Below, in pieces: positions 1 through 64,000 of a stretch of DNA of 64,000 nt; position 1 is the stretch's first letter, and each line of letters opens with the position of its first letter. Origin of the DNA: Paraspadella gotoi (Eukaryota > Animalia > Chaetognatha); contig CM119271.1 of assembly GCA_051294375.1 (NCBI GenBank), positions 16,002,770 to 16,066,769 on the forward strand, read 5' to 3'. Position numbers and translations under genes: made by a program. The notes below the pieces were generated by a model. The model saw nothing but the letters and a program-made list of their open reading frames with translations, was not told the origin of the DNA and made no database searches.

Positions 1-1149
1 CGCTCCGAGTCTGACCTCGGCCATCGCCTACGAGACCTCGAACATGTTCGGTCAGGCGGCCAAGTCGTTGGAGTCGCTCGACCAGGAGCTCTGCGCCAAG
101 TGGCGTCATTATCTCTCGCTCAAGTCAAAGTTTTATCATTCCTTCGCCTTTTGCTATCAGGGCGAGGCTCTCCTCGCCGCCGACAAGGGCGGGGAAGCCA
201 TCGCCTCTTTGAAGGAATGCAAGAAGCTCTACGAGGAGACGCAGGTTATCTCAGTTTTATGGCAACGGGAGGAATGCATGTGATACCCGGGGGCGCGGGG
301 GAACTGCGGGGGGCTGCGGACCCTCAGTGACCGCCTCCTGTCACTCTCATATTTAAACCTTATTGAAAGTAAACCAAAAAAATTATGAGAAATAATCTAA
401 TCAGCTTCAATATGCAAATGAGACTTAGGAACCACAACTAACTGCTTATTTCCCGCCCTTCCCCGTCATCTCACAGACGATCTGCAAGGAGTACCACCTG
501 ACCAAAGGACAAGGGACGACGGCGAAACCGCAGGAGCATCAGTTCTACATGAGATTCGGTCCCGTCGTCGCTCGGACGCTGGAAAAGACGGAGAGAGAAA
601 ACGGATTCATTTATCACCAGAAGGTGCGGGACTGTGCGAGACTGTGCGAGGCTGTGTGGGAAGAGAATTTCACGGGGATCTTGGTACCCCTTCCCTTCTT
701 TACCCCTTCCCTTCTTTACCACATTCTCCTCTTTACCACCTTGACATCTTTACCCCCTTCACATCTTTACCCCCTTCCCCTCTTTTCCCCCTTCCCCTCT
801 TTATCCCCTTCCCCCCTTTACCCATTCTCCCTCCTCCTCTTAACCCCTTATCTATTCCCCCTTTTCATCCCATTCTCCTCCCACCTCCCCTTTTTCCCAG
901 GTCCCCGACAAACCCAACGAGTTAGAGTTAAAAGCGACGTACGGCCTGGCCTCGCCCGAGGAGATGGTTCTGCCGGAGATGAACGGTCAGTGGACGGACG
1001 AGACTTACCGCGCCTTCGACCTCACCCTCAACAAGGTCGACCCCAAAGAGAAGAAGAAGAGAGAGAAGGAGGAGCGGGGCCCCTTGCCGCCGGTCAAGGA
1101 GGCGGAGATCCCTCAGTCCATGCGTCAGTCTGTCTGTTCCGTCATGTGA
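1..1149 (+). CDS. BROX: BRO1-domain and CAAX-motif protein (BROX), last three exons, 5'-partial
   Basis: Exons about 1-243, 476-623 and 901-1149 joined at GT-AG give KWRHYLSLKSKFYHSFAFCYQGE...LEKTERENGFIYHQKVPDKPNELELKATYGLASPE. ERENGFIYHQKVP is the Bro1 signature, and the protein ends in the CAAX box CSVM. Confidence 0.92.
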
Positions 1150-2750
1150 AGGGGGAGAAGGAATGATCCATTGTGTATTTTTTTAATTATTTACGGTTTT
1201 AGAAAAGGAAAGACGAAAGAGAAAATAATTTAATTTAATTTAATGTATGCAATAATATATAATGTATTAGTTTTATAAAATTAAAATGTATATAATATAA
1301 TGTAATGTATTATTTTTATAAAATTAAAATGTTGAAGTCCCAAGGAAATTGGTTTTATTAGAGGTCAAAAGAATTTACTCTTTCGTTTTTCGTGTGTTCA
1401 CCGATAGGTATTGCTACTTTTTTTCCTAAAAATTGTAAATTGAAATCCAAAATTTCTAATTTTTTTGGGGGGGAAAGTGAATCGCAATGATCTAACAAAA
1501 TGCTCTTCTTATTTTTGGTGCATGAAATTTTGCCACTTTTTCCTCCAATTTAAGGCCACTAGATTTTGCCCACCCCCCCCCCAAATATATTTTTATTAGG
1601 GAAGTTTACTATTTATATAAAAATTGTTTTCCCCTCAAAGAAAATAGTTGTGTGCCATATGATAAAATATTCCATTGTGCATTCCATTGAGTATGTAACG
1701 GTGTACCATTGGAGCTCAGATACAGGATATTGGAATGTTAACCTTTTCATTTTGAATAATATGTATGTACCCCCCCCAATTTCTTTTTAAATTTGCTGAA
1801 ATTTCTGTTTAACAATTGATAGAAAAAAATTTGCGGTATTAAAATTTAAATAACAAATTTAAATATACATACATTAACGAGATTTTTTTTTATCTCGTTA
1901 AATCGGTATTCCATTGTAATATTTTTACTTAAACGATAAAATCGAAATTCGTATTTCGATAATCTTATTTTATATTATGACAAACGTTAAATGGTTTTAT
2001 TTTAGTTCACTATTATTTACCGCCTGCGCTATTTGCTCGTAACTCTTCACCTTGCTAGTCACTACGCAATTTTTTTTATTGATATAGTTTAGAATTAAAT
2101 GTGAAATGTCTGCCGAATGTCTTCACTTCGAGTTCATATAAACAAGCGATCGACAAAAATCGTTCCAGTTTACAAATCGTAATAAAAATGTATTATATAT
2201 TAAACCGATTTTATTTTCCTGTCAATATAATTTCCGGACGATAAGTCAGCGGATCGCGACGTCCCATCGCAGATAGTCTTGGCATTGGAGGCGTCGCAAA
2301 CGTATAGTCACACAATTTAATAGATAAATGAAATGAAATAATACAAAATAAAGTAATAAATGAAGAATCTCAATTGAACATATACGAAAAGTGAATCGAA
2401 GAAAACGATCTTCATGGATCATGCAGGTCGCCCACCGGAATTTTAAGAGGATTCCCGTTTATTTTGTTGCCTTCGTTCTGAGATTTTCCAGCGGCAATCG
2501 ACGCGATTTAACTAACGATGGTTCTTTATTATTAGGACAAATTCATACAAACGAATGGATGCGAAAAACTTTTGAGACTAAATTGACTCGTTTGCTTTGG
2601 ATGTATTAAAACAAAGTCGTTTTAAATCCCAATTCGAAGTCGGTTAACAAAAACGGTTGCTTCGCTCGTAATCCCTTTTTCCGTTCGAAATTGTACAGAT
2701 TATATAATTAAGAAAGAAAAGAAGCAAAGCCTCCGTCTCAACTCTAAAGC

Positions 2751-62632: not shown

Positions 62633-63908
62633 ATGGATTCTCCGGTTAATAACCGATATTTAATTGCGAGTTCTACTTCGGCCAGGTATGTCGCAGACAC
62701 TATATCTACCTTTTCGGTCTGTCCGTCCGTCTGTCGGTGTATAATGATAAATGAATTAACCTTAATAAATAAAATTCGTTACGGAAAAAGGCAATATCTT
62801 CTGAATTCCAATGAGAATGGTGGGATGAGGAGGAGGAGGAGGAGGAGGAGGAGAATGCATAGAAGTGAATTAACGAAAGGAATTTGAGGAGTTAAACGGA
62901 ATTAACCCGAGCTGTGGCATAGTTTCTGTAGACTGTACGTTTATATTATTATTATTTTCTTTATTTCGTCTTTCAGTCCATCAACGGGATGGCGTCATTC
63001 CGACAACGGATTAGACTCCCATACTTTTTCTGGGAATTCCGCCGGCGCCGCCACTCCCTCGTTTTCCGGCGCCGCTTCCCTCTGCGGCGCCGCTACTCCA
63101 TCTTCCGGTGCCGATCTCAAGACGCGACGCCCTTCCTGCGCCGAAGATGAAAAGCGCGACTGTGTTTTCTCCGAGGCTGATTCTCGCCGCGGCAGCTGCA
63201 GCGTCGGCGGCGGCTTTAACGTTCACGTTCCCCCTTCGTTTATTTAAATATTATTAGTAAAATCCATATTCCTCCTTATTACATCCGGGTCCCTGGGGAA
63301 GGGGGGGAACTTGGACGTTAAGTGAACGTTCGTAAAAGCAGACTCCCTCGGCCGAATCTTCTCGAGCGACGCCGCCAGTTGCGACTTCTCCCAACGCCGG
63401 CGCCTCTCCGACGCCCCGGGGCCGAGTCGTCGGCGCCGTCACGCCTCGTCTCATTCGATCCTCTCGTCTCCCGAACGGCGCCTCGCCTTCTTACGCTCCG
63501 ACGGCGTCGGCCAGGAAACGCAAGGCCGACAAGAGGATGGAGATATTCGTCGTTCGAGTCGTTTCCCCCTCAGAATTTTATATTCAGGTTTGTTTAGATT
63601 TGGTTAATTGTTAACCTAAATGATTAACTATATTGTTAATTCTGTTGGAAGTAATTCTTGTTATAAGTATTCTTAAATAGTGAAAACTTTTCCGAAAACC
63701 GTGTCAAAAAAATATGCTACAATATGAGATTGAAGAATTCAATCTTGGTTGATATGAATCATAAGTTATTCTCTCTCTCACTCTCGCTTACTCCAGTTGA
63801 AAGAGGATCAACTTCAACTGGAAAAATTGATGAAAGATTTGAACAAAGAATTGAAAGATTCTTCTCCGGAGCAAAATCGCGTTTGGAGAGAAGACGAGAC
63901 TTGCGCCA
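62633..63908 (+). CDS. Extended-Tudor-domain protein (TDRD-like), 3'-partial
   Basis: Spliced exons give a Ser/Pro-rich N-terminus, then MEIFVVRVVSPSEFYIQ|LKEDQLQLEKLMKDLN...EDETCA, the typical start of an extended Tudor domain. The gene continues beyond the window. Confidence 0.72.
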
Positions 63909-64000
63909 GTAAGAACTTTTGATTATAAAGGTTAATCAATTAATTTAAATGAATTGTAGAAATATACAATTCTTTTATATTTTATTTACTAATCATTTAG

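What the first reader, a model, noticed from the sequence alone, without database searches (positions are those of the whole stretch)
1..64000. All 15 unrelated genes lie on one strand: candidate large polycistronic or unidirectional gene block in an intron-rich animal genome
Seen: 15 genes, not a tandem array, all on +, with no supported minus-strand gene in 64 kb. Under independent random orientation this has probability 1/16384. Stop-to-ATG gaps are often short (about 155, 240, 710, 730, 740 and 950 bp). Known: nematodes, tunicates and some other animals have SL trans-spliced operons, usually of a few genes; very long unidirectional blocks are typical of kinetoplastids and dinoflagellates. 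Inference: either extensive operons resolved by trans-splicing, or a genome-wide strand-block organisation unusual for a metazoan.
Basis: partly seen in the sequence, partly recalled or inferred. Interest (0 to 1): 0.85.

Follow-up and report, generated by a model that had tools for sequence, protein, structure and literature searches.

The report
Arrow-worm one-strand, leader-spliced gene chain
Fifteen unrelated genes, most likely from an arrow worm, lie head to tail on one DNA strand and one of them carries the end of the arrow-worm spliced leader in RNA data, so the block is probably a chain of operons, as a same-strand run longer than the longest operon reported for these animals.

Summary
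Observation confirmed. Fifteen intron-containing or long-ORF gene models all lie on +; 11 of 15 have Pfam hits; 108 minus-strand ORFs gave no credible gene. The animal is very likely a chaetognath: one RNA-like run carries the non-genomic 9-mer TTGTTTAAA at an unpaired acceptor (46101) before HSP110, identical to the 3' end of published chaetognath spliced leaders. Spliced contigs fill or bridge three gene gaps. Trans-splicing and operons are already known in this phylum (longest published operon: nine genes), so the mechanism is not new. The 1/16384 is a per-window figure: 0.7 such runs are expected per 22,000 randomly oriented genes, 3.3 with published operon junctions. What may be new is the scale: a published Spadella BAC table also has 14 of 14 named cellular genes on one strand, and no paper found discusses strand blocks. 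Best reading: several abutting operons and leader-spliced genes, not one 64-kb polycistron. No genome was held, so genome-wide run lengths are untested. The scan has noted two-gene operon candidates in other animals, none in this genome.

The parts
1..1149 (+). BROX, 3' part (3 exons)
   Evidence: open frame; BRO1 E 4.6e-10
2751..5752 (+). SPTLC1-like serine palmitoyltransferase subunit (10 exons, 484 aa)
   Evidence: Aminotran_1_2 on two exons below cut-off; gene name recalled
6464..8524 (+). inositol polyphosphate 5-phosphatase with SKICH domain (5 exons)
   Evidence: Exo_endo_phos2 and SKICH
9472..10734 (+). Ser/Pro-rich protein ending in a Cys motif like the USPL1 N-terminus (2 exons)
   Evidence: no Pfam hit at 0.01; likeness recalled; weakest coding score
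13359..13556 (+).
   Evidence: FLYWCH E 2.2e-6, above cut-off
13991..15609 (+). InaF-motif protein (3 exons); AG acceptor 2 nt before the ATG
   Evidence: InaF-motif E 5.7e-12
16691..19219 (+). MTERF-like protein (5 exons)
   Evidence: open frame; no Pfam hit; name recalled
19296..19309 (+). T-run + AG with no strong donor and no AATAAA in the 154-nt gap: predicted trans-splice acceptor of TRMT10C
   Evidence: same form as the site shown at 46101; not tested with RNA
19374..22301 (+). TRMT10C-like tRNA methyltransferase (7 exons; one junction unresolved)
   Evidence: tRNA_m1G_MT E 6e-4
23592..34093 (+). cyclic-nucleotide phosphodiesterase, PDE7-like (about 22 exons; exons after 30097 tentative)
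   Evidence: PDEase_I on five exons; subfamily name recalled
36076..41422 (+). Obg-family GTPase, MTG2/GTPBP5-like (7 exons)
   Evidence: GTP1_OBG and MMR_HSR1
42504..44582 (+). single-exon Gly/Arg/Glu-rich protein (692 aa); RNA continues to at least 45192
   Evidence: no Pfam hit; contig of 1120 nt
45212..46083 (+). spliced RNA (intron 45722-45790, GT..AG) overlapping the 3' contigs of the previous gene and ending 17 nt before the leader site; no long ORF
46101..46101 (+). trans-splice site: contig begins here with non-genomic TTGTTTAAA; the genome has a T-run + AG
   Evidence: equals the shared 3' end of chaetognath SL forms 2, 3 and 4 in PMC2481426 Table 3
46293..52555 (+). HSP110/HSPA4 (18 exons, 868 aa)
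   Evidence: HSP70 on eight exons; eight GT..AG joints shown in RNA contig
52454..54178 (+). one contig piece runs from the last HSP110 exon across the 1372-nt gap into MIX23 exon 1
   Evidence: record 2 (4773 nt)
53928..54538 (+). MIX23/CCDC58 (3 exons)
   Evidence: MIX23 E 1e-5
54778..58756 (+). C2H2 zinc-finger protein (7 exons), 239 nt after the MIX23 stop
   Evidence: zf-C2H2
59495..61905 (+). C2H2 zinc-finger protein (3 exons)
   Evidence: zf-H2C2_2 E 5e-41
61842..62682 (+). one contig piece runs from the zinc-finger last exon across the 727-nt gap into exon 1 of the next gene
   Evidence: record 5
62633..64000 (+). Tudor-like protein, 5' part, runs off the window
   Evidence: no Pfam hit; likeness recalled

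Best explanation
The window holds fifteen unrelated genes on one strand, one of which (HSP110) carries the end of the chaetognath spliced leader, and it is likely a stretch of an arrow-worm genome where several operons and singly leader-spliced genes probably lie end to end. Shown: common strand, cis-splicing on +, the leader tail at 46101, RNA filling or bridging three gaps. Inferred: RNA polymerase II reads through neighbouring genes; each downstream message is cut free and capped by adding the leader at an unpaired T-rich acceptor while the upstream message ends a few bases before it; long 3' UTRs fill most of the 0.7-1.7 kb stop-to-ATG gaps, so that little or no untranscribed DNA is left for a promoter. 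Inferred too: the block is more than one transcription unit (likely breaks at the 3.3-kb repeat-containing gap 10734-13991 and before the PDE gene), and genes stay co-oriented because a gene that moves in on the same strand can borrow read-through transcription and a leader, while an inverted one cannot.
For: Leader tail TTGTTTAAA at 46101 where the genome reads T-run + AG, matching SL forms 2, 3 and 4 of PMC2481426 Table 3; a 9-nt tail at this site was one of two outcomes written down beforehand (note). The upstream spliced contig stops at 46083 and no contig covers 46084-46100, while two introns have no cover, so this is processed RNA, not DNA. Contigs bridge HSP110-MIX23 and ZnF-Tudor. HSP110 is 74-80% identical to nine unnamed sequences that form one clade (SH-aLRT 100, quick tree) and about 50% to all named animals. 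No AATAAA in 5 of 14 gaps; all 14 gaps have the T-over-A skew of the introns. In P. gotoi about half of the genes are trans-spliced and 18% are in operons, enriched for housekeeping functions (PMC12460157). In a Spadella BAC 14 of 14 named cellular genes with a stated orientation are +, over 120 kb.
Against: The contig passes the MIX23 start without a break, so no leader is visible there. Contigs across two genes do not show one transcript (tool caveat): overlapping UTRs give the same picture. One run only, contigs, library not on record. Acceptor scores upstream of the 14 ATGs are not higher than in other + non-coding windows (p 0.44). Only 2 of 14 stop-to-ATG gaps are under 250 nt. A trans-spliced gene can be monocistronic. 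No named chaetognath record was matched, so the species is unknown.
Confidence: 0.68

Rival explanations
1. The whole block, or most of it, is a single very long polycistronic unit, part of a kinetoplastid-like organisation of chaetognath chromosomes into directional gene clusters of tens of genes.
For: 15 of 15 genes here with both ends open; 14 of 14 named cellular genes in the Spadella BAC; 12 of 12 BAC junctions (leaving out the operon for which it was chosen) put the same-strand rate at 0.78 or more (95% bound), against 0.57 from published candidate operons; RNA cover in all 30 bins of 44.5-64 kb (repeats included).
Against: In P. gotoi only 5,061 genes fall in 2,151 candidate operons, the longest operon has nine genes, about half of the genes get no leader, and 42,810 ATAC peaks were called; gene models there include UTRs. 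The window has a 3.3-kb gap with repeats and a multi-exon signalling gene (PDE) of the kind reported to be excluded from operons. The BAC was picked for an operon and its table omits predictions without a SwissProt match.
Confidence: 0.14
2. The genes have their own promoters (some are trans-spliced as single genes) and share a strand by chance, helped by one or two short operons.
For: 0.7 runs of 15 or more are expected among 22,072 randomly oriented genes and 3.3 with published operon junctions, so such a run can exist by chance; median gap 1081 nt; non-operonic trans-spliced genes outnumber operonic ones in P. gotoi.
Against: A given window has only a 6e-5 to 3.5e-4 chance and the scan holds no other noted window of this genome; the independent BAC shows the same pattern; RNA leaves 17 nt or nothing between transcripts at three junctions.
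Confidence: 0.15
3. Minus-strand genes were missed, or the window is an assembly artefact.
For: Two coding-like patches of undecided strand (11580-11930, 40540-40730); short minus exons under 50 aa were not scanned; two junctions in the models do not close.
Against: No credible Pfam hit in 108 minus ORFs; all displayed GT..AG joints are on +; independent RNA contigs join neighbouring genes in the assembled order with 0-2 other letters.
Confidence: 0.03

Closest known systems
Chaetognath SL trans-spliced operons (Spadella cephaloptera RPS14-PCNA, PMC2481426; Paraspadella gotoi, PMC12460157)
   Same: Same leader 3' end, unrelated housekeeping genes on one strand, upstream RNA ending a few bases before the next acceptor (3 nt published, 17 nt here by contig ends), cis-introns retained.
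   Different: The same-strand run here is 15 genes or more over at least 64 kb; the longest published operon has nine genes. The 2008 paper notes that other BAC genes share orientation, but neither paper measures strand runs.
Tunicate operons (Ciona, Oikopleura) as summarised in PMC7986045
   Same: Leader added to both operonic and single genes; little or no DNA between transcripts.
   Different: One leader in tunicates, several in chaetognaths; predicted Ciona operons reach seven genes.
Nematode SL2 operons (C. elegans, Trichinella)
   Same: Polycistronic precursors resolved by leader trans-splicing.
   Different: They use an operon-specific leader; chaetognaths are reported to have none, and the 9 nt seen here cannot tell the forms apart.
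Kinetoplastid directional gene clusters; dinoflagellate unidirectional blocks
   Same: Long runs of unrelated same-strand genes matured by a spliced leader (search listing).
   Different: There all mRNAs are trans-spliced and blocks hold tens to hundreds of genes (recalled; kinetoplastid genes are nearly intron-free, also recalled); here 82 cis-introns, a leader shown at one gene, block ends and promoters unknown.

Membership tests
Chaetognath SL-resolved operons | A chaetognath spliced leader replaces the 5' end at an unpaired acceptor | tested here: met
   TTGTTTAAA at 46101 equals the 3' end of SL forms 2, 3, 4; shown for 1 gene, 9 nt only
Chaetognath SL-resolved operons | Unrelated genes adjacent on one strand | tested here: met
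   15 of 15 models
Chaetognath SL-resolved operons | Less than 250 bp between transcripts (criterion of PMC12460157) | tested here: met
   Met at 5 of 14 junctions: two by stop-to-ATG distance (154, 239), three by RNA contigs (17 nt, bridged, bridged); the other nine were not resolved
Chaetognath SL-resolved operons | Downstream genes of the operon receive the leader | tested here: inconclusive
   Seen at HSP110; not seen at MIX23 or the Tudor-like gene, whose starts are crossed by contigs; 244 of 250 loose ends not displayed
Chaetognath SL-resolved operons | One promoter and one precursor RNA for several genes | not testable with these tools
   Only contigs of one run; contigs show neither starts nor single molecules
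Kinetoplastid-type directional gene clusters | Tens to hundreds of genes per block, bounded by strand-switch regions, genome-wide | not testable with these tools
   No genome held; no close genomic relative among 71 metagenome loci; the Nature gene table was too large to read
Kinetoplastid-type directional gene clusters | Every mRNA is trans-spliced | tested here: inconclusive
   1 gene shown; published figure for P. gotoi is about half of the genes, which speaks against
Kinetoplastid-type directional gene clusters | Transcription starts only at block ends | not testable with these tools
   Needs CAGE, PRO-seq or chromatin data
Nematode SL2 operons | Operon-specific leader on downstream genes | tested here: inconclusive
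   The 9-nt tail is common to three leader forms; PMC12460157 reports no operon-specific leader

The most novel reading that the evidence does not exclude
Chaetognath chromosomes are partly organised into long directional gene blocks, tens of housekeeping genes and more than 60-120 kb on one strand, read as a few long polycistronic units and cut up by leader trans-splicing: an intron-rich animal approach to the kinetoplastid layout, overlooked because operons were counted by a 250-bp rule and strand runs were never measured.
Probability: 0.3. Interest if true: 0.8.

Novelty: new variant of a known kind. Interest (0 to 1): 0.5.

Why it matters
Animal operons are usually described as short islands (up to seven predicted genes in Ciona, nine in P. 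gotoi). If same-strand runs of 15 or more genes are typical of chaetognaths, trans-splicing has shaped gene orientation on a much larger scale in an intron-rich bilaterian, which would bear on how operons grow and might relate to the reported lack of TADs and of gene-body methylation in P. gotoi (the link is speculation). The test is cheap: three chaetognath assemblies are in print. If runs prove near-geometric, this window is an ordinary cluster of known chaetognath operons.

Tried and rejected
No genome held for the window, so no genome-wide run lengths. Rfam: 4 weak matches, none at gathering score, no SL RNA gene. Only one run was listed and it is not on record as RNA; its spliced joints and uncovered introns show RNA. 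Uncovered parts prove nothing on their own. A metagenome scan for genomic relatives found 71 loci, none a close full-length relative (full-length matches 54% or less), so synteny in other chaetognaths was not tested. A search with MIX23 exon 3, meant to see whether relatives carry MIX23 on the same contigs as HSP110, found 8 candidates and no hit; the profile search that could replace it did not run; the Atlas gave no answer. An acceptor weight matrix did not separate the 14 upstream regions from other + non-coding windows (p 0.44; against minus windows p 0.001), so sequence alone does not show outrons; a T-run + AG without upstream ATG was found at 3 of 14 starts. Nematode origin was rejected on the lack of a dominant TTTCAG-type acceptor (consensus recalled) and on the leader match. 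The tree is a quick tree of 44 chosen rows without chaetognath-labelled rows; it shows isolation, not identity. N-terminal extensions of relatives' proteins did not match translated published leaders by eye. Literature on chaetognath strand blocks: nothing found in searches; the words strand, orientation and unidirectional are absent from the main text of PMC12460157 and, in this sense, from its three readable supplements; its gene table (xlsx) could not be read and may bear on the claim.
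Full report
What is there. The window is animal DNA with GC-rich exons and AT-rich introns. I built fifteen gene models by coordinates, all on the + strand: BROX (partial), SPTLC1-like, a SKICH-domain inositol 5-phosphatase, a Ser/Pro-rich protein, an InaF-motif protein, an MTERF-like protein, TRMT10C-like, a phosphodiesterase, an Obg GTPase, a single-exon low-complexity protein, HSP110, MIX23, two C2H2 zinc-finger proteins and a Tudor-like gene cut by the window end. 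They hold 82 GT-AG introns, median 197.5 nt. Of 93 exon pieces scanned, hits support 11 of the 15 genes, two of them below the curated cut-off; the names of the USPL1-N-like, MTERF-like and Tudor-like genes are recalled likenesses without a hit. One TRMT10C junction and the last PDE exons do not close.

Is the minus strand empty? Of 284 stop-free minus ORFs of 50 aa or more, the 108 lying mostly outside + CDS were scanned; 2 of 108 hit Pfam, one opposite an HSP110 exon (NAD-GH, recalled as the antisense shadow of Hsp70 genes) and one sub-threshold hit in a CT-repeat. A leave-one-out codon model prefers the + frame in 16 of 16 CDS pieces. It leaves two coding-like patches of undecided strand, 11580-11930 and 40540-40730, without Pfam hits at useful levels. 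Two extra features are also on +: a FLYWCH ORF and a spliced 803-nt RNA. One tRNA-Gly-like element lies on minus inside an intron.

How unusual is it? The six short gaps quoted are right, but the 14 stop-to-ATG gaps have a median of 1081 nt and only two are under 250. The 1/16384 holds for one window. In a genome of 22,072 randomly oriented genes 0.7 runs of 15 or more are expected, and 3.3 if the published candidate-operon junctions of P. gotoi are added. One window therefore cannot prove a genome-wide pattern, although a given window is unlikely to hit such a run, and the scan holds no other noted window of this genome.

Which animal? HSP110 is 74-80% identical to a group of unnamed JGI and Logan proteins and about 50% to all named animals; window and nine unnamed rows form one long-branched clade in a quick tree of 44 chosen rows (SH-aLRT 100). 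No named record fixes the taxon. The leader does: see below. The species is not established.

RNA evidence. One run, X1, holds the stretch (contigs, RNA by guess). Laid on 44500-64000 it shows eight GT..AG joints on + in HSP110 among the 15 of 86 joints displayed (the other seven are repeat noise), and long pieces with 0-2 other letters. One 4773-nt contig runs in a single piece from the last HSP110 exon across the 1372-nt gap into MIX23 exon 1; by letter count it ends near 54660, at a T-rich AG 117 nt before the next ATG (inferred, not displayed). Another runs from the last zinc-finger exon across the 727-nt gap into the Tudor-like gene. Counting letters of the 4773-nt contig predicted a non-genomic tail of 9 nt at 46101 or 32 nt at 46124 (note). 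Laid on 44620-46470, the contig starts at 46101 with the loose letters TTGTTTAAA; the genome has a T-run and AG there, and the 9-mer occurs once on + in the window, 25 kb away. It is the shared 3' end of chaetognath leader forms 2, 3 and 4 in Table 3 of PMC2481426 (section 12 read). Upstream, overlapping contigs carry RNA from the low-complexity gene through a spliced 803-nt piece to 46083; depth arithmetic shows no contig over 46084-46100 and none over two introns, so the cover is processed RNA and ends 17 nt before the leader site.

Sequence-only signs are weak. All 14 gaps have the T-over-A skew of the introns and five lack AATAAA. Acceptor scores before the ATGs do not exceed other + non-coding windows (p 0.44). 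A T-run + AG without an upstream ATG, like the shown site, occurs at 3 of 14 starts, among them the 154-nt gap before TRMT10C.

How it most likely works. Shown: one strand, cis-splicing, a chaetognath leader tail on HSP110, RNA filling or bridging three gaps. Inferred: polymerase reads through neighbours, leader addition frees and caps downstream messages, long 3' UTRs fill the gaps. I put 0.68 on a chain of several operons and singly trans-spliced genes, 0.14 on one kinetoplastid-like polycistron, 0.15 on independent promoters with chance co-orientation, 0.03 on missed minus genes or artefact.

What is known. PMC12460157 (passages, outline, sections 5 and 15, three readable supplements searched) reports trans-splicing of 10,197 genes, 18% of genes in operons, 2,151 candidates by a 250-bp rule, the longest of nine genes, no operon-specific leader; its gene table was too large to read and may hold the answer. 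PMC2481426 (passages, section 12, supplement 2) describes the RPS14-PCNA operon and notes that other genes of its 158-kb BAC are clustered and share orientation. Its Table S5 lists 24 rows, 23 with orientation: 19 plus, 4 minus; three minus rows are labelled transposon and the fourth is an unlabelled row under the same gene number; all 14 named cellular genes with an orientation are plus. That BAC was chosen for an operon and unannotated predictions are omitted, but 12 of 12 remaining junctions give a 95% lower bound of 0.78 on the same-strand rate, above the 0.57 implied by published candidate operons. PMC7986045 (passages) gives up to seven genes for predicted Ciona operons. PMC11067885 (passages), the Flaccisagitta and Spadella preprints (term searches), PMC2997562 (term search, no hits) and PMC12852818 (passages) say nothing on strand blocks. 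Searches (listings and abstract starts) found long unidirectional blocks only for kinetoplastids, diplonemids and dinoflagellates; this library lacks most subscription papers.

Verdict. The feature is real and its mechanism is a known one for this phylum. The possibly new part is the length of same-strand runs, seen here and latent in a 2008 table from another library, and not measured in the papers found. It is a one-hour test on public annotations. Interest 0.5; the bold reading (long directional blocks across chaetognath chromosomes) has probability 0.3 and would deserve 0.8.

Noticed in passing
window 13359-13556 (+): A 65-aa FLYWCH zinc-finger ORF behind an AG acceptor, in the longest gene gap; small gene or Mutator-type remnant.
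   Followed up: partly
window 45212-46083 (+): Spliced RNA without a long ORF; one frame runs about 150 codons interrupted only by stops that read TGA, as a decayed gene might; could be an intron-containing 3' UTR of the upstream gene.
   Followed up: partly
window 40290-40760: CT-repeat and CpG-rich, coding-like patch inside the last intron of the Obg GTPase, strand undecided; holds an AAGATGGCG motif (YY1-like, recalled). Possible nested exon, promoter or gene fragment.
   Followed up: partly
window 11000-13250: Coding-like fragments of undecided strand and a 120-nt repeat (11352-11471, 13041-13160) flanking a probable inserted element with a 28-nt tandem array.
   Followed up: no
window 22282-22584 (+): An acidic, repeat-containing ORF continues the TRMT10C tail in another frame: frameshift allele or assembly indel.
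   Followed up: no
window 28933-29396 (+): The phosphodiesterase tail repeats an RRGSGDELL motif about seven times, resembling stacked PKA sites (recalled consensus).
   Followed up: no
window 38396-38468 (-); 24159-24326 and 48017-48177: A tRNA-Gly(CCC)-like element in an intron, and two copies of another interspersed repeat, probably SINEs.
   Followed up: no
protein P0061 (unnamed relative): An HSP110 of the same clade is fused near its end to a ubiquitin-like domain resembling the parkin N-terminus (recalled): read-through splice into a downstream gene, or an assembly chimera.
   Followed up: partly
window introns at 7243, 14319, 26031 and 46675: Long GA repeats sit just after donors and the longest CT repeat just before an acceptor, all in + introns.
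   Followed up: no
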